The notes beneath the pieces were generated by a model. It made no database searches, was not told the origin of the DNA, and saw only the letters and a program-made list of their open reading frames with translations. A stretch of 63,973 bases of DNA, counting the filler. It is 7 parts of 7 records of this genome, joined end to end, with 100 filler letters (N's around TTAATTAATTAA, not from the genome) between each part and the next. Parts side by side here need not be neighbours in the genome. Positions count along the whole stretch, not along the records: positions 52,295 to 58,826 come from DRR723986_11312; 6 more parts are not named here. One strand, given 5' to 3'. This document shows, one piece after another, positions 52,417 through 57,958 of the stretch. The stretch's first letter is position 1, and each line of letters begins with the position of its first letter. The position numbers were made by a program, and so were the translations under genes.

Positions 52417-53910
<1,494 letters not shown>

Positions 53911-53911
<1 letters not shown>

Positions 53912-54384
53912 CAATGTTGTCCCTTTTTCTCGCAATCGCTGCCACAGCCGCCAAGCCCCTGGCACTTTGATTGAATGGCTTCGCAGTAAAATGAAAACTC
54001 GGCCTCAATTGCGGCCCTGAGTGGCAGATCAGAGACCCCAACGGTGGTCCTTGCGGGCAGGCACTCCCTTGGCGTTGCGCCGAAGAAGTCATCCCACACG
54101 GCGTTAAAGGCTGGAAATTCCGAAAACTCGGAAAGGTAGATCTTTGCCCCCACCATGTCCTCAATTGTCAGGCCAAGCTCATCCATCATGGCTTTTAAGT
54201 TGATGAAGATGCACTTGGCTTCAGCGCTGATCCCGCCCGCAACAAGCTCACCCGAATCACGATCCAGCCCGACCATTCCTGCCGTCTGAACGTAACCGCC
54301 GACCCCCACGAGAGGGCTATAGCTGAACTTTGGGTTCGGCATGGCCTTTGTAGATATTGCTCTTTTTGCTGTTGGCGATGCCAT
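53911..54384 (-). CDS. RidA/YjgF family protein
   Basis: FSYSP, TAGMVG, FPAFNAVWDDFF and PARTTVGVSDLPLRAAIEAE; AGGAAGG RBS. Confidence 0.88.
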
Positions 54385-54422
54385 TGGGCGCACCTTCCTG
54401 TTGGTCGAGTTTCAAAAGCTAT

Positions 54423-54441
54423 AATCTTAAAATTTGAGATT
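54423..54441. promoter_or_regulatory. candidate operator in divergent promoter
   Basis: AATCTTAAA-A-TTTGAGATT, near-perfect inverted repeat in an AT-rich gap. Confidence 0.5.
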
Positions 54442-54562
54442 GTAAATCATTTATTGAGTTTTTGAATTTTGTCGTCTAAGAAGGCTCCTATGTTTAACGC
54501 CCGCCGCCGCTGGGCAGCCTGATCACGACCTCGTCGGAGATCGAAACCGGAGGAAAGTCACC

Positions 54563-56635
54563 ATGAACCCGCTTGCAGTCGGAATTCTGAGTATCGTCAT
54601 CGCAATCATCGTGATCGTGATTCTATGGGTCCTGTTTTGGTGGCTCTACAAACGCGCGACCAAGGAGGTGGCCTTTGTCCGAACCGGTTTTGGGGGGCAA
54701 AAGGTTGTCCAGAACGGCGGCGCCTTCGTCATTCCGGTCCTGCACGACACCATCCCTGTTTCGATGGGAACGGTTCGTATGGAGATTGCGCGAATCGAGG
54801 CAAACTCAATCATCACCAAAGACCGGATGCGTGTGGACACCACAGCTGAATTCTACATCCGAGTGGGAGGCCGGGAGGATGCAATCGCGCTGGCGGCGCA
54901 ATCACTCGGCAGCAAGACAGCACGCCCGGAAGCCCTGCGCGAGTTGATGGAAGGTCGCTTTGTCGACGCCCTGCGCACGGTCGCGGCCGAAATGACCATG
55001 GAAGACCTGCATGAACAGCGCGGCGAATACATTTCTCGCGTCAAGGCGCTTGTCAGCCCCGAGATTGAACGGACAGGTCTCGAACTGGAATCGGCCTCGC
55101 TGACCGCGCTGGAGCAAACGAAGAAAGAGTTCTTTAACCCCAACAACGCCTTCGATGCCGAGGGTCTTACACGGCTGACCAACGAGATTGAGGAACGCCG
55201 GCTGAAACGAAACGCCATCGAACAGGATTCAGAGGTCAGCATCCAGCAAAAGCTGTTGGAAACCGAAACGCGCAAACTTGAGATTTCGCGCGACGAAGAA
55301 TTCGCCCGACTTGAGCAACAGCGCGACATCGCAGTGCGCCGCGCCGAACAGGCCGCACGCATTTCAGCAGAAGAAGCAGGCAAACGAAGAGAGGCCGAAG
55401 CCGCAAAGGTCGACGCCGATCTAGCCATCAAGGTCGCCAACATCAAAGCCGAACAAGCCGCCGAATTCGAAACGCTCGGAAAGCGCAAGGCCATTGAGCA
55501 GTTGAACCAGAAAACCAATCGGGAAATCGCCGAGACAGAGGTAGAGGCGGACCAGGCGGTAAAGCTGCGGAAGATTGAAACCGAAAAAACCATTGCACTC
55601 CAGCAGGCAGAGACAACTTCGCTGGTCGCCCAGGAAGAGGCCAAGCTGCGCCAGGTGGCAGATGCAGCGCAAATCATGGCCGATCAGGAAGTGGACAAGG
55701 TTCGGATCAGCGCGCAGGCCGAGGTCACACAGGCCAAGACCAAAACCGATGAGGCCATCGAGGTCGCCAAGCGGGCGGCAGAACGCGCCATTGCGGAGGC
55801 AAAGTTGCAGTTGGATACCGCTGTGGATCTTCTTGCAGTGGAACAGCAACAGACCCTCGCACTGAGCGAACACCAGAAGGACATCGCGATTGCGGAAAGC
55901 ACAAAATCGCAGGTTGCAGCCCTCGCCGCGGCCGAGAATGATCGCGCACAACTCGTCAAGGCCGAAGAGGAACTTGCCAAACTGCGTGCGGTCGAACGAG
56001 AGGAGAAAGAGAAAGTGATCGCTCTGATCCAGGCCGCGACCGACGCAGAAAAGGCCGCAATCACCACAGCCATCGCCGCCGAAAGCCAGCACAAGGAGGC
56101 CGCGGAGCTTGCCAAGGCAGCCGAGATCAGAACCAAGTCCGAGGCCGGACGCATCACCGCCATTGCCGCGGCCGAAGCGGCAGCCGACAACGAACAGACA
56201 GAGGCGATCAAGCTGCGCCGCGCCGTTGAGGCGGATGCCGCCAAAGCCCTCAATGAGGCGGAAAACCTCATGTCGGACGACTTGATGAAGCTGAAAGTTC
56301 GCCTGTCGGTCATCGAAAACCTCAAGGATATCATTCGGGAAAGCGCCCGCCCGATGGAGCAAATCGACGACATCAAGATTGTGCAGGTCGATGGCCTGCT
56401 AGGCGGATCGGGTGGTTCCGGAGACACCGTCGTAAGCGGTGGTGAAGGCGGAAACCTTGCCGATCAGGTGGTCAACAGTGCGCTGCGTTATCGTGCGCAA
56501 GGACCGGTAATCGACTCCCTGCTGAGCGAGATCGGATTGAAATCACCCGATGCCAAAGGCGTTGCCAACATGCTTGGCCATGACTTTGACCCCAATGGTG
56601 ACGGGAATGGAAGCGAAAGCACTCAGAACGACTGA
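54563..56635 (+). CDS. flotillin (SPFH) family protein, YqiK-like
   Basis: N-terminal TM, AFVRTGFGG, ITKDRMRVD, FNPNNAFDAEGL, long AEA-rich coiled coil and PMEQIDDIKI...LRYRAQGP; GGAGG RBS. Confidence 0.92.
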   Translation: MNPLAVGILSIVIAIIVIVILWVLFWWLYKRATKEVAFVRTGFGGQKVVQNGGAFVIPVLHDTIPVSMGTVRMEIARIEANSIITKDRMRVDTTAEFYIRVGGREDAIALAAQSLGSKTARPEALRELMEGRFVDALRTVAAEMTMEDLHEQRGEYISRVKALVSPEIERTGLELESASLTALEQTKKEFFNPNNAFDAEGLTRLTNEIEERRLKRNAIEQDSEVSIQQKLLETETRKLEISRDEEFARLEQQRDIAVRRAEQAARISAEEAGKRREAEAAKVDADLAIKVANIKAEQAAEFETLGKRKAIEQLNQKTNREIAETEVEADQAVKLRKIETEKTIALQQAETTSLVAQEEAKLRQVADAAQIMADQEVDKVRISAQAEVTQAKTKTDEAIEVAKRAAERAIAEAKLQLDTAVDLLAVEQQQTLALSEHQKDIAIAESTKSQVAALAAAENDRAQLVKAEEELAKLRAVEREEKEKVIALIQAATDAEKAAITTAIAAESQHKEAAELAKAAEIRTKSEAGRITAIAAAEAAADNEQTEAIKLRRAVEADAAKALNEAENLMSDDLMKLKVRLSVIENLKDIIRESARPMEQIDDIKIVQVDGLLGGSGGSGDTVVSGGEGGNLADQVVNSALRYRAQGPVIDSLLSEIGLKSPDAKGVANMLGHDFDPNGDGNGSESTQND

Positions 56636-56706
56636 TTTGCATATCACTGGAGGGAGTATTGATATAATGTCGTTTGAAACAACACAGAAAAACTCCCTTC
56701 AGGCCC

Positions 56707-57867
56707 ATGGCAACTCCCAAAAACACTTCAGTCATAAAAGCTTTTGAGATTCTCAATGTTTTCAGCCGAAACAACAGGCCACTGACAGCGCCTGAGGTGG
56801 CAGAAGAAACGGGACAAAACCTTTCGACAACGCACAGGTTTCTCCTCACACTGGAGGACCTGGGCGCGGTCGCCCGGTCACCGGGAAACCGATATCATCT
56901 GGGAATGATGGTGGCGGAACTGGGCAAGAAAGTCACCAAACGCGACGTCTTTGCCGAACGGGCAAAAAGCCACGTGAACAAACTCTGCGAGCGCTTGGGA
57001 GAAACCATCAGTCTCGCGACCTTCGAAGATGAAAAAATCCAGTTTATCGCCTGGGCCGAACCCAGACGCCCTCTGTTTTTCCAGTTGCGACGTGATGAAC
57101 CTTTGCCGCTGCATGCAAGTTCTCTGGGCAAACTCTTTCTCGCCGCAATGCCGACAGTGGCGCGCGAAGAAGCAATTCAGAAACTGACATTGACCAGGTT
57201 TACGGATCAGACGCTTCACTCTGCTGCCACGCTCCGCCGCGAGCTTAACCAGGTGGCCGAGAACGGTTTTGCGCGCGACAATCAAGAGCTTGAAGACGGA
57301 CTTGACTGCATCGCGGTCCCCATACTTGACGCAGACGGGCATGTATTTGCGGCACTGTCTGTCTCGGCCCCCAGCTCACGTGCAAATCGCACGACCCTTC
57401 GGACATTCAAACAGGCCCTGCTTCAGACAGCAGGAGACATTCAGAAGTCGCTCTTTATCGAAAACAAGATCCTCCCCGGAAAAGCAAAGCCAAAAGGCAG
57501 CTTCCCGCATGTCAAACGCGTCGGCGATTTCGGCTTCATTTCTGGAACCAGTGCACGCAATCCGGATGAGACCTTTACCGGCGCAACGGTGAAAAAAAAC
57601 GGCGAAGTCATCCTGGATATCACCAAGCAAACCACCGCCACTATCCAGAATATCGCGGACATTCTGGCAAGCATTGATGCTGAACTGGACGATCTGGTTG
57701 AACTGGAGGCTTATCTCGTCGACATGGATGACTACGACGGGTTCAACGCAGCCTACGAACAGTTCTTTGGCACCGATGGCCCAACAAGAACAACCGTATC
57801 AGTTGAAGCCCTCCCCCACCCTCATCAGCTCATCATGATGAAAGCAACGGCCTATATCCCGCGGTAA
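56707..57867 (+). CDS. IclR regulator fused to C-terminal Rid (aminomuconate deaminase-like) domain
   Basis: SVIKAFEIL HTH, LHASSLGK, ELEDGLDCIAVPI and AALSVS (IclR), then in frame PKGSFPH, FISGTSAR and GPTRTTV...LPHPH (Rid). Confidence 0.88.
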   Translation: MATPKNTSVIKAFEILNVFSRNNRPLTAPEVAEETGQNLSTTHRFLLTLEDLGAVARSPGNRYHLGMMVAELGKKVTKRDVFAERAKSHVNKLCERLGETISLATFEDEKIQFIAWAEPRRPLFFQLRRDEPLPLHASSLGKLFLAAMPTVAREEAIQKLTLTRFTDQTLHSAATLRRELNQVAENGFARDNQELEDGLDCIAVPILDADGHVFAALSVSAPSSRANRTTLRTFKQALLQTAGDIQKSLFIENKILPGKAKPKGSFPHVKRVGDFGFISGTSARNPDETFTGATVKKNGEVILDITKQTTATIQNIADILASIDAELDDLVELEAYLVDMDDYDGFNAAYEQFFGTDGPTRTTVSVEALPHPHQLIMMKATAYIPR

Positions 57868-57958
57868 GGGACAGCCAAGCGCTGACTTCAGACATATGCA
57901 ACAAAGCCCTTTGGGCCGAAACAGGCACTTGTTCGCATCAAGCATCTAGCATCAAGCG

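What the first reader, a model, noticed from the sequence alone, without database searches (positions are those of the whole stretch)
56707..57867. IclR regulator fused to a Rid deaminase domain that has lost the conserved Glu
Seen: a complete IclR (HTH plus effector domain, about 250 aa) continues without a stop into a Rid domain that closely parallels the neighbouring AmnD-like gene (PKGSFPH vs PRGRYPH, ISGTSAR vs VSGTSSR, GPTRTTV..LPHPH vs GPARTTV..LPHPH). The imine-binding Arg is kept, but the C-terminal IEI motif reads IMM, whereas both stand-alone Rid genes keep the Glu. Known: Rid proteins are trimers with inter-subunit sites, and IclRs are dimers or tetramers. Inference: a duplicated pathway enzyme repurposed as a second sensor, or a trigger enzyme, for 2-aminomuconate or reactive enamines. 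The 3-fold versus 2/4-fold symmetry mismatch could drive higher-order assembly or mixed trimers with AmnD. I do not recall a characterised regulator with this architecture.
Basis: partly seen in the sequence, partly recalled or inferred. Interest (0 to 1): 0.8.

Follow-up and report, generated by a model that had tools for sequence, protein, structure and literature searches.

The report
IclR regulator with dead deaminase domain
This is a real and widespread but unstudied bacterial gene switch in which a DNA-binding regulator of an aminophenol-degrading gene cluster carries a copy of one of that pathway's own enzymes, a copy that seems to have lost its catalytic residues and probably now serves as a sensor or assembly module.

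Summary
One open frame (56707-57867, 386 aa) encodes HTH_IclR, IclR_C and a Rid domain. It is not an assembly artefact. Contigs from 4 runs of 4 studies cross the junction without gaps, and 118 of the 120 best database relatives have the same three domains.

The Rid domain is closest to the solved 2-aminomuconate deaminase AmnE (6IZH, E 1.7e-40).

The Glu-to-Met change is a family signature. Met occurs in 119 of 119 fused homologues and Glu in 51 of 51 stand-alone relatives. The catalytic Arg, kept here, is lost together with a partner Asn in 33 of 119 fused homologues.

The fused Rid domains form one clade (SH-aLRT 98). Of 29 loci, 27 also hold amnB and 27 hold a Glu-bearing stand-alone AmnD-like gene.

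A conserved repeat motif lies in the divergent promoter region (54426-54459).

My reading is an amn-cluster IclR regulator with a pseudo-deaminase domain used for ligand sensing and/or oligomerisation. The sensing role is inferred. I could not test the oligomeric state, because the complex prediction failed three times. My literature searches found no paper on this architecture. I rate it a new variant of a known kind.

The parts
56707..57867 (+). IclR-Rid fusion gene (386 aa plus stop). An in-frame TTG at 56674 is the mechanical ORF start. The ATG at 56707 is the likely start.
   Evidence: Homologue N-termini read MATPKN. Contigs of 4 runs cover it without gaps.
56728..56880 (+). HTH_IclR winged helix-turn-helix (residues 8-58 of the 386-aa protein)
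   Evidence: Pfam PF09339, 53.8 bits against a cut-off of 22. Foldseek matches PcaR, T. maritima IclR and others.
56950..57444 (+). IclR_C effector-binding domain (residues 82-246)
   Evidence: Pfam PF01614, 128.6 bits against a cut-off of 24. TIGR02431 pcaR_pcaU scores 163.5 bits, below its cut-off of 284.75.
57487..57855 (+). AmnD-type Rid domain (residues 261-383), read as a pseudo-deaminase
   Evidence: PF01042, 68.4 bits. 6IZH AmnE, E 1.7e-40. TM 0.95-0.98 normalised to the target, rmsd 0.8-0.9 A.
57835..57837 (+). Met377 codon, at the position of the Rid family's conserved Glu (AmnE Glu133, RidA Glu120)
   Evidence: Met in 119 of 119 fused homologues, Glu in 51 of 51 stand-alone relatives.
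57787..57789 (+). Arg361 codon (AmnE Arg117, RidA Arg105 equivalent). Kept in this protein.
   Evidence: Across the family Arg is kept in 86 of 119 homologues and lost in 33.
54426..54459 (.). Candidate operator in the divergent intergenic region. It has an imperfect palindrome, CTTAAAATTTGAG (CTCA-N5-TGAG in the relatives), plus a third TGAG repeat. These surround a conserved ATTGTAAA core, which is TACAAT on the minus strand.
   Evidence: Phylogenetic footprint. The only promoter-like match on the minus strand overlaps it, but promoter-like matches there are not above chance.
54563..56635 (+). Flotillin-like gene (Band_7 + Flot) directly upstream of the regulator and probably co-transcribed with it
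   Evidence: The same position is conserved in 14 of 29 loci.
53911..54393 (-). Rid protein of 160 aa (keeps Arg and Glu), first gene of the divergent amn-type operon
   Evidence: A homologue is present in 20 of 29 loci.
53429..53965 (-). Stand-alone AmnD-like Rid (the ORF is 178 aa; the true start is probably later), with Arg and Glu intact
   Evidence: Present in 27 of 29 loci, all 27 with Glu.
52417..53439 (-). 2-aminophenol 1,6-dioxygenase beta subunit (AmnB) orthologue. The contig ends soon after it.
   Evidence: 3VSG_B E 2.1e-149 and 8IHG_A E 6.6e-148. Homologues of 66-96% identity in 27 of 29 loci.

Best explanation
The gene encodes the dedicated IclR-type regulator of a 2-aminophenol-type (amn) meta-cleavage cluster. 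Its C-terminal domain is an old duplicate of the pathway's 2-aminomuconate deaminase (AmnD/AmnE type) that has become a pseudo-enzyme.

Shown:
- The three-domain protein is real and conserved.
- Its Rid domain is one clade.
- It always carries Met where the enzymes carry Glu.
- The other cleft residues that are invariant in the enzymes (Arg361, Asn347) are free to be lost.
- The gene travels with amnB/amnA and an intact stand-alone AmnD-like gene.

Inferred:
- The N-terminal HTH binds the conserved TGAG-repeat motif. That motif overlaps the putative promoter of the divergent amn operon, so the protein would most likely act as a repressor by promoter occlusion.
- The Rid domain still assembles through the Rid trimer interface and binds, without turning over, a pathway intermediate. 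For Arg-bearing members such as this one, that is most likely the unstable enamine 2-aminomuconate or its product. The regulator would thus get a second input besides the IclR_C pocket, and an extra oligomerisation interface.

My rough split of the odds:
- ligand sensor, with or without an assembly role: about 0.45
- assembly or scaffold only: about 0.2
- partner of stand-alone AmnD: about 0.1
- still an active deaminase: about 0.15
For: Architecture and reality:
- Pfam finds three domains in one frame.
- 118 of the 120 best relatives have PF09339 + PF01614 + PF01042 and are about 384-456 aa, mostly 385-400. They come from Phaeobacter, Ensifer, Mesorhizobium, Devosia, Azospirillaceae and other sources.
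- 28 public genome loci hold a full-length copy.
- Contigs of 4 runs from 4 studies cross the junction with 0 gaps, and 10 of 11 variant sites are at codon position 3.

Origin:
- The closest solved structure is AmnE, 6IZH (E 1.7e-40; TM 0.95-0.98 normalised to the target).
- The 29 fused Rid domains form one clade (SH-aLRT 98.2) in a tree of 84 rows rooted on the Rid160 group.

Pseudo-enzyme signature:
- Met in 119 of 119 fused homologues against Glu in 51 of 51 stand-alone relatives.
- Asn347, Arg361, Thr363, Gly358 and Val366 are at least 95% conserved in the stand-alone set and relaxed in the fused set.
- Lys270, Arg271, Phe290, Phe346 and Gln374 are at least 95% conserved in the fused set and variable in the stand-alone set.
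- Arg361 and Asn347 are kept together in 86 of 86 homologues. Arg361 is lost in 33, and 32 of those also lack Asn347.
- The enzyme is not replaced. A Glu-bearing stand-alone AmnD-like gene sits in 27 of 29 loci.
- The domain is still constrained. Mean pairwise identity is 50.8% for the fused Rid part against 40.1% for the IclR part, over 325 pairs from 26 loci.

Pathway link:
- The neighbour is AmnB (E 2.1e-149).
- AmnB is found in 27 of 29 loci.
- In other loci the fused gene lies inside canonical amn-like operons, with a dehydrogenase over the TIGR03216 cut-off (819.6 bits against 693.25) and a hydratase.
- An AmnC-like gene over the cut-off lies about 2 kb beyond the left end of two flotillin-type loci.

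Operator:
- The core GAGAnnGTAAA..TGAG is found in 13 of 14 flotillin-type loci, always in the divergent intergenic region. It is found in 0 of 15 other loci, and shuffles give a mean of 0.1.
- A looser palindrome-plus-repeat pattern gives 15 sites in 14 of 29 loci, against 0-3 in shuffles.
Against: - No binding, activity or oligomeric state was measured.
- By the passage I read in PMC4433059, changing RidA Glu120 to Ala had little effect on activity. Loss of the Glu alone therefore does not prove inactivity, and this protein keeps Arg361 and Asn347.
- The 33 Arg-less members cannot bind a carboxylate in the usual Rid way, so a single family-wide ligand is doubtful. Arg (12 members) or His (9 members) appears at position 347 in 21 of them, which may or may not compensate.
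- The residues that are invariant across the whole family lie largely in the LPHPHQ..M loop and strand. In AmnE this region is an inter-trimer contact (PMC6742747 passages). That fits an assembly role as well as a sensing role.
- The motif patterns were derived from the same loci in which I counted them, and the shuffles kept only base composition.
- Promoter-like matches in the region are not above chance (2 found, 1.6 expected).
- The AF2 model has pTM 0.54, so the domain arrangement is unknown.
Confidence: 0.6

Rival explanations
1. Bifunctional or trigger enzyme. The fused Rid domain is still an active 2-aminomuconate (or other imine/enamine) deaminase, and catalytic turnover or substrate occupancy controls DNA binding.
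For: - This protein keeps Arg361 and Asn347, as do 86 of 119 homologues.
- It keeps most AmnD-clade invariants: Ser279, Gly280, Arg284, Asp287, Gly292, Gln308 and LPHP.
- By the passage I read in PMC4433059, RidA with Ala in place of Glu120 remained largely active, and only the Arg is essential.
Against: - Glu is replaced by Met in 119 of 119 fused proteins, while 51 of 51 stand-alone relatives keep Glu.
- 33 of 119 fused proteins lack the essential Arg.
- An intact stand-alone AmnD-like gene sits in the same locus in 27 of 29 cases, so the activity would be redundant.
Confidence: 0.15
2. Assembly module only. The Rid domain binds no ligand. It serves to trimerise or hexamerise IclR dimers, or to dock onto stand-alone AmnD trimers, which changes cooperativity at the three-repeat operator.
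For: - The residues invariant across the whole family cluster in the LPHPHQ..M loop and strand. In AmnE this is the trimer-trimer contact of a homohexamer (PMC6742747, abstract and passages).
- Cleft residues are relaxed.
- The candidate operator has three half-sites.
Against: - AmnE Arg56, which the paper found necessary for the hexamer, is not conserved at the aligned position 300 (Ser 45, Glu 17, Thr 16 of 120).
- AmnE Met96 is relaxed in the fused set.
- Many AmnD-specific residues near the cleft stay invariant.
- No oligomer prediction was obtained.
Confidence: 0.2
3. Artefact. Two adjacent genes (an IclR and an AmnD-like gene) were joined by an assembly or sequencing error in a fragmented draft.
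For: - The window is a chain of short contigs.
- An older public annotation of the Phaeobacter homologue calls the Rid part alone as a 138-aa '2-aminomuconate deaminase' (P0121).
Against: - 118 of the 120 best relatives are fused at the same place.
- Contigs of 4 runs from 4 studies cross the junction with 0 gaps.
- P0121 and P0122 carry the IclR-to-Rid linker (FIENK / FIESK) and Met at the Glu position, so they are partial calls of fused genes.
- All 8 true stand-alone hits (P0123-P0130) carry Glu.
Confidence: 0.01

Closest known systems
PcaR / PcaU / PobR-type IclR regulators of aromatic catabolism
   Same: - N-terminal HTH_IclR plus an IclR_C effector domain.
- The best NCBIfam match is TIGR02431 pcaR_pcaU.
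- The best structural matches are P. putida PcaR (8EJU/8EJV) and other IclR proteins.
- The gene sits beside, and is divergent from, an aromatic ring-cleavage operon.
- A candidate operator made of an inverted repeat plus a third direct repeat resembles what I recall of the PcaU operator. That resemblance is recalled and comes from no call.
   Different: - The TIGR02431 score is 163.5 bits, below the cut-off of 284.75.
- The protein carries an extra C-terminal Rid domain of about 135 aa that no solved IclR chain has.
- The pathway is the amino-aromatic (amn) meta-cleavage route, not beta-ketoadipate.
2-aminomuconate deaminase AmnE/AmnD of Pseudomonas sp. AP-3 (PDB 6IZH) and its stand-alone relatives
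   Same: - 52% identity, and rmsd 0.8-0.9 A to the model.
- Shared clade-specific motifs: FPH, SGTSxR and LPHP.
- Encoded in amn clusters.
   Different: - Glu133 is replaced by Met, and Leu130 by Gln, in all fused members.
- Arg117 and the residue at AmnE position 103 are dispensable in the fused clade.
- The domain is covalently attached to a DNA-binding regulator.
- The stand-alone enzyme is still present next to it.
Regulators that use an enzyme-derived domain as sensor: MocR/GabR (aminotransferase fold on a GntR HTH), BzdR (shikimate-kinase-like domain), and trigger enzymes such as PutA. All of these are recalled from general knowledge and come from no call.
   Same: The concept is the same. 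A duplicated metabolic enzyme fold is fused to an HTH and kept for ligand recognition instead of bulk catalysis.
   Different: The enzyme fold is different (Rid/YjgF, with a ligand site between subunits of a trimer), and so is the DNA-binding family (IclR). I found no described case of a Rid domain in a transcription factor. The main text of the 2015 Rid family survey mentions fusions only in general terms and does not mention IclR.
YabJ, a stand-alone Rid protein linked to purine regulation
   Same: This is a precedent for a Rid-family protein taking part in gene regulation. The PDB title of 1QD9 is 'purine regulatory protein YabJ'. Its dependence on PurR is recalled and comes from no call.
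   Different: YabJ is a separate RidA-type protein with intact catalytic residues. It is not fused to a DNA-binding domain.

Membership tests
IclR family transcriptional regulators | N-terminal winged HTH of the IclR type (PF09339) | tested here: met
   53.8 bits against a cut-off of 22, residues 19-69 of the 397-aa ORF.
IclR family transcriptional regulators | C-terminal IclR effector-binding domain (PF01614) | tested here: met
   128.6 bits against a cut-off of 24. Foldseek matches to PcaR, T. maritima IclR and TtgV at E about 1e-22 to 1e-17.
IclR family transcriptional regulators | Sequence-specific binding to an operator near the regulated genes | not testable with these tools
   Only a phylogenetic footprint is available: a conserved TGAG-repeat motif at 54426-54459.
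PcaR/PcaU/PobR subfamily (TIGR02431) | Score over the curated cut-off | tested here: not met
   163.5 bits against a cut-off of 284.75.
Rid (YjgF/YER057c/UK114) superfamily | Rid fold and Pfam PF01042 | tested here: met
   68.4 bits against a cut-off of 27.3. The model superposes on 6IZH with TM 0.95-0.98 normalised to the target.
Rid imine/enamine deaminases (RidA, Rid1-3, AmnD type) | Arginine that binds the substrate carboxylate (RidA Arg105), essential for activity by the PMC4433059 passage | tested here: met
   Arg361 is present in this protein. Across the fused family it is kept in only 86 of 119 homologues.
Rid imine/enamine deaminases (RidA, Rid1-3, AmnD type) | Conserved glutamate (RidA Glu120, AmnE Glu133), which the PMC4433059 passage says all eight Rid subfamilies retain | tested here: not met
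   Met377 in this protein. Met in 119 of 119 fused homologues and Glu in 51 of 51 stand-alone relatives.
Rid imine/enamine deaminases (RidA, Rid1-3, AmnD type) | Homotrimer with inter-subunit ligand clefts | not testable with these tools
   The complex prediction jobs failed, so there is no result.
RidA subfamily (TIGR00004) | Score over the curated cut-off | tested here: not met
   56.7 bits against a cut-off of 106.25.
2-aminomuconate deaminase (functional enzyme) | Deaminase activity on 2-aminomuconate | not testable with these tools
   The sequence signature argues against it. Public names such as JGI's '2-aminomuconate deaminase' for full-length fused proteins are automatic.

The most novel reading that the evidence does not exclude
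The Rid domain is a non-hydrolysing receptor for the short-lived enamine 2-aminomuconate. Because its ligand site lies between subunits, ligand binding would control the assembly of IclR dimers into a trimer-of-dimers (hexamer) on a three-repeat operator. This would be a first example of a Rid-fold sensor in a transcription factor, and of a cell measuring an unstable pathway intermediate directly through a disarmed copy of the enzyme that consumes it.
Probability: 0.2. Interest if true: 0.8.

Novelty: new variant of a known kind. Interest (0 to 1): 0.6.

Why it matters
Rid/YjgF proteins are among the most widespread small proteins. Several of their subfamilies that lack the catalytic Arg have no known function (PMC4433059, abstract and passages). 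A clade in which a Rid domain is hard-wired to a DNA-binding domain, with its catalytic residues switched or relaxed, gives a concrete and testable non-catalytic role for the fold, in ligand sensing and/or assembly.

It would also add a new companion domain to the IclR family. It names the likely regulator of amn-type aminophenol degradation clusters in marine and soil Alpha- and Gammaproteobacteria. This matters for bioremediation and for biosensor design for aminophenol and nitroaromatic breakdown products.

It also corrects a recurring annotation error, in which the fused protein or its C-terminal part is named '2-aminomuconate deaminase'.

Tried and rejected
- **Complex prediction.** I sent the Rid domain as three copies three times: twice as a slice of alignment A1 (and 60/66) and once as the window's own protein. 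All three jobs failed, so there is no verdict on the trimer.
- **Own genome.** It is not held.
- **Relatives of the nearest held genome.** In 41 genomes the query found only ordinary IclR proteins: identity 35% or less, with matches ending at or before query residue 274, so none covers the Rid domain (residues 261-383). The fused gene was not found in those searched with this query. Because the window is a chain of contigs, kinship to that genome is uncertain.
- **RNA evidence.** No RNA holder was listed, so expression is untested.
- **Earlier scan findings.** Nothing relevant came up.
- **Two Rid reviews** (PMC7373157 and PMC10642521) are not held.
- **Supplementary tables.** Those of the 2015 Rid survey (PMC4433059) and of the transcription-factor companion-domain survey (PMC5882156) could list this architecture, but supplements were closed. 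My statement that it is not in print rests on full-text searches and passages.
- **First Rid tree**. It was contaminated by antisense ORFs from single-linkage clustering, so I rebuilt it cleanly.
- **Internal start for a separate Rid protein.** Rejected. The older 138-aa Phaeobacter call begins at a Leu of the linker, and in the window that codon is CTC.
- **Hexamer by analogy with AmnE.** Not adopted, because AmnE Arg56 is not conserved.
- **Promoter scan.** Matches are not above chance.
Full report
**1. The observation**

The region lies on a 6.5-kb contig (52296-58826) of a window made of several contigs joined by N + TTAATTAATTAA linkers. One open frame runs from 56674 to 57867. The ATG at 56707 gives 386 aa and matches the N-terminus MATPKN of the homologues.

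Pfam finds three domains with no stop between them:
- HTH_IclR, 53.8 bits
- IclR_C, 128.6 bits
- Ribonuc_L-PSP (Rid), 68.4 bits

The Rid part is 47% identical to the neighbouring 178-aa Rid protein (E 3e-45) and 26% identical to the 160-aa one. The Arg is kept (R361), and the C-terminal IEI reads IMM (M377). Both stand-alone genes keep the Glu.

**2. Not an artefact**

Because the assembly is fragmented, I checked the junction in three ways.
- In a search of 5.8 billion proteins, 401 proteins scored E <= 0.001 among 8000 candidates. Of the 120 best, 118 carry PF09339 + PF01614 + PF01042 at about 384-456 aa. The two exceptions are an N-terminally different copy (P0002) and a frameshifted one (P0055).
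- A scan of one genome per species found 28 loci with a full-length copy. They include isolates (Phaeobacter sp. 11ANDIMAR09 at 82% identity, Mesorhizobium sp. ANAO-SY3R2, Sphingobium fuliginis DSM 18781, Sphingobium sp. R-21, Reyranella sp.) and metagenome-assembled genomes of Alpha- and Gammaproteobacteria.
- Contigs of four public runs from four studies cover the IclR-Rid junction with no inserted or deleted letters. Ten of the 11 variant sites fall on the third codon position of this frame, in both halves of the gene.

Short 'stand-alone' hits that carry Met (P0121, P0122) begin inside the IclR-to-Rid linker, so they are partial gene calls. The 8 true stand-alone hits all carry Glu.

**3. 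What the Rid domain is**

Its closest solved relative is the 2-aminomuconate deaminase AmnE of Pseudomonas sp. AP-3 (6IZH). The match is E 1.7e-40 and gap-free over 132 residues, so AmnE numbering equals the 386-aa numbering minus 244.

The AlphaFold model has mean pLDDT 86.2 and pTM 0.54. Its Rid part superposes on 6IZH at 0.8-0.9 A, and its N-terminal two thirds superpose on PcaR and other IclR structures. No solved chain covers both parts.

In a tree of 84 Rid sequences rooted on the Rid160 group, the 29 fused domains form one clade (SH-aLRT 98.2) next to the stand-alone AmnD-like proteins. The fusion therefore arose once, from an old duplicate. It is not a recent copy of the gene next door.

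**4. The pseudo-enzyme signature**

I compared 119 fused homologues with 51 stand-alone AmnD-like proteins, column by column.
- The Glu position is a complete switch: Met in 119 of 119 against Glu in 51 of 51.
- Five positions are at least 95% conserved in the fused set and variable in the stand-alone set: Lys270, Arg271, Phe290, Phe346 and Gln374.
- Eight positions are at least 95% conserved in the stand-alone set and relaxed in the fused set. They include Arg361 (the RidA Arg105 equivalent), Asn347, Thr363, Gly358 and Val366.
- Arg361 and Asn347 are kept together in 86 of 86 homologues. Arg361 is lost in 33 of 119, and 32 of those 33 also lack Asn347. Arg (12) or His (9) appears at position 347 in 21 of them.

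Among the 150 best representatives from 1.84 billion clustered proteins, the Gln374 + Met377 pair occurred in 15 proteins. Twelve of these have an IclR part, and three are short proteins that look like fragments of such genes. Met alone also occurs in single repeats of three triple-Rid proteins. Four more distant stand-alone representatives have Ile, Ala, Val or Gly in place of Glu.

By the passage I read in PMC4433059, all eight Rid subfamilies retain this Glu and the Arg is the residue essential for imine hydrolysis, while replacing the Glu with Ala had little effect on S. enterica RidA. The Glu loss alone is thus weak evidence of inactivity. The family-wide switch, together with the dispensability of Arg and Asn, is much stronger evidence.

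The domain is nevertheless under constraint. Its mean pairwise identity is 50.8%, against 40.1% for the IclR part, 57.4% for the stand-alone AmnD-like protein and 72.2% for AmnB (26 loci, 325 pairs).

**5. Genomic context**

The neighbouring LigB-type gene is an orthologue of the beta subunit of 2-aminophenol 1,6-dioxygenase (3VSG_B, E 2.1e-149; 8IHG_A, E 6.6e-148). Counts across the 29 loci with a full-length fused gene:

| Gene in the locus | Loci of 29 |
|---|---|
| AmnB homologue (66-96% identity) | 27 |
| Stand-alone AmnD-like gene (Glu in all 27) | 27 |
| Rid160 homologue | 20 |
| Flotillin gene directly upstream of the fused gene | 14 |

There are two layouts.
- **Flotillin type**, as in the window. 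The operon Rid160, AmnD-like, AmnB, AmnA-like, periplasmic binding protein, alpha/beta-hydrolase, two ABC ATPases and a permease runs one way. Flotillin and the fused regulator run the other way. In two such genomes, a dehydrogenase over the TIGR03216 cut-off (858 and 859 bits against 693) lies about 2 kb beyond the left end of the locus. I assume that the contig numbers correspond.
- **Operon type**, in Sphingomonads and Gammaproteobacteria. The fused gene lies inside or at the head of a canonical amn-like operon, with the dehydrogenase (819.6 bits), a hydratase and a decarboxylase.

The fused gene was not found in 41 relatives of the nearest held genome with this query. It therefore appears to be an accessory, patchily distributed cluster.

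**6. A candidate operator**

The divergent intergenic regions of the flotillin-type loci are otherwise dissimilar, but they share a motif. It consists of CTCA-N5-TGAG, then a conserved core A(T/C)TGTAAA(C/T)C, then a third TGAG. In the window it reads CTTAAAATTTGAGATTGTAAATCATTTATTGAGT, at 54426-54459.
- The core pattern occurs in 13 of 14 flotillin-type loci, always in that intergenic region. It occurs in 0 of 15 other loci, and 50 shuffles gave a mean of 0.1 sites.
- A looser palindrome-plus-repeat pattern gave 15 sites in 14 of 29 loci, against 0-3 in 20 shuffles. These include sites directly upstream of amnB or the AmnD-like gene in operon-type loci.
- Variant palindromes appear upstream of amnB in two further loci.

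There are two caveats. The patterns were derived from these same sequences, and the shuffles preserve only base composition.

On the minus strand the core reads TACAAT. It coincides with the only promoter-like match for the amn operon (-35 at 54466, -10 at 54444-54439). Such matches are not above chance in this region. If it is real, the repeats bracket the -10 element, which is the usual arrangement for a repressor.

**7. Mechanism**

Shown:
- an IclR regulator with an AmnD-derived Rid domain
- conserved linkage to amn genes
- a catalytic-site switch and relaxation
- retention of the real enzyme alongside

Inferred:
- The protein binds the repeat motif and controls the amn operon, and probably its own flotillin-regulator transcript.
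- The Rid domain has been kept for a non-catalytic job.

I favour binding of the AmnD substrate or product without turnover (about 0.45), because most AmnD-specific residues remain invariant. An assembly-only role (about 0.2) fits the invariant LPHPHQ..M segment. In AmnE this segment forms the trimer-trimer contact of a homohexamer (PMC6742747, abstract and passages). However, AmnE Arg56, which the paper found necessary for the hexamer, is not conserved here. I could not test any oligomer, because all three complex jobs failed.

**8. Comparison and novelty**

The DNA-binding two thirds of the protein is an ordinary IclR. It is nearest to the PcaR/PcaU/PobR group but below that subfamily's cut-off. 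The last third is a Rid domain of the AmnD type that fails one defining feature of the deaminases, the Glu. Conceptually the protein resembles regulators with enzyme-derived sensor domains, such as MocR/GabR and BzdR; this comparison is recalled and not tested.

I found no paper describing an IclR-Rid or any Rid-transcription-factor fusion.
- Full-text searches.
- Passages read: PMC4433059, PMC10470539, PMC6449761 and PMC5882156.
- Not seen: supplements, and two Rid reviews.

Databases already show the architecture under automatic names, some of them wrong ('2-aminomuconate deaminase'). I therefore rate it a new variant of a known kind, with interest 0.6.

Noticed in passing
window 11715, 29899, 36346, 43207, 52239, 58871: The window is not one continuous sequence. 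Six N + TTAATTAATTAA linkers join separate contigs of a draft assembly, so neighbours across these points are not physically linked.
   Followed up: partly
window 54563-56635; L001 7815-9929 and 12 other loci: A flotillin-like gene (Band_7 + Flot, about 600-900 aa) sits between the amn operon and the fused regulator in 14 of 29 loci. It is apparently co-transcribed with the regulator. I have no explanation for a membrane-raft scaffold in an aromatic-amine degradation cluster.
   Followed up: partly
window 57868 and 57000: Contigs of three runs (X1, X5, X6) agree with the window up to the stop codon and then diverge at 57868. One run (X8) continues past the stop but diverges upstream of 57000, matching the different N-terminus of P0002. 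There is strain-level rearrangement at both ends of the gene.
   Followed up: no
L001 179-4854 and the matching genes of other flotillin-type loci: A Liv-type ABC transporter (binding protein, two ATPases, permease) and an alpha/beta-hydrolase of the hormone-sensitive-lipase type are embedded in the amn operon. This suggests the natural substrate is an imported N-acyl or ester derivative of an aminophenol, not free 2-aminophenol.
   Followed up: partly
P0168, P0197, P0157, P0217, P0202; P0131 and other three-repeat hits: AmnD-type Rid domains that keep the Glu also occur fused to ARD/cupin dioxygenase-like domains and to an FAA-hydrolase domain. They also occur as triple tandem Rid proteins. 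These look like enzyme-enzyme fusions, unlike the IclR fusion.
   Followed up: partly
P0121 (Phaeobacter sp. 11ANDIMAR09) and JGI names: Public annotations call the C-terminal part alone, or the whole fused protein, '2-aminomuconate deaminase'. This is probably a propagated misannotation.
   Followed up: partly
window 53911-54393 and homologues in 20 loci: A second, more distant Rid protein (160 aa, with Arg and Glu intact) is the first gene of the amn-type operon in most loci. Its role beside the AmnD-like deaminase is unknown.
   Followed up: no
fused family positions 347 and 361: Arg361 and Asn347 are lost together in 32 of 33 Arg-less members, with Arg or His appearing at 347 in 21 of them. 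This may be a relocated basic residue in a remodelled pocket.
   Followed up: partly
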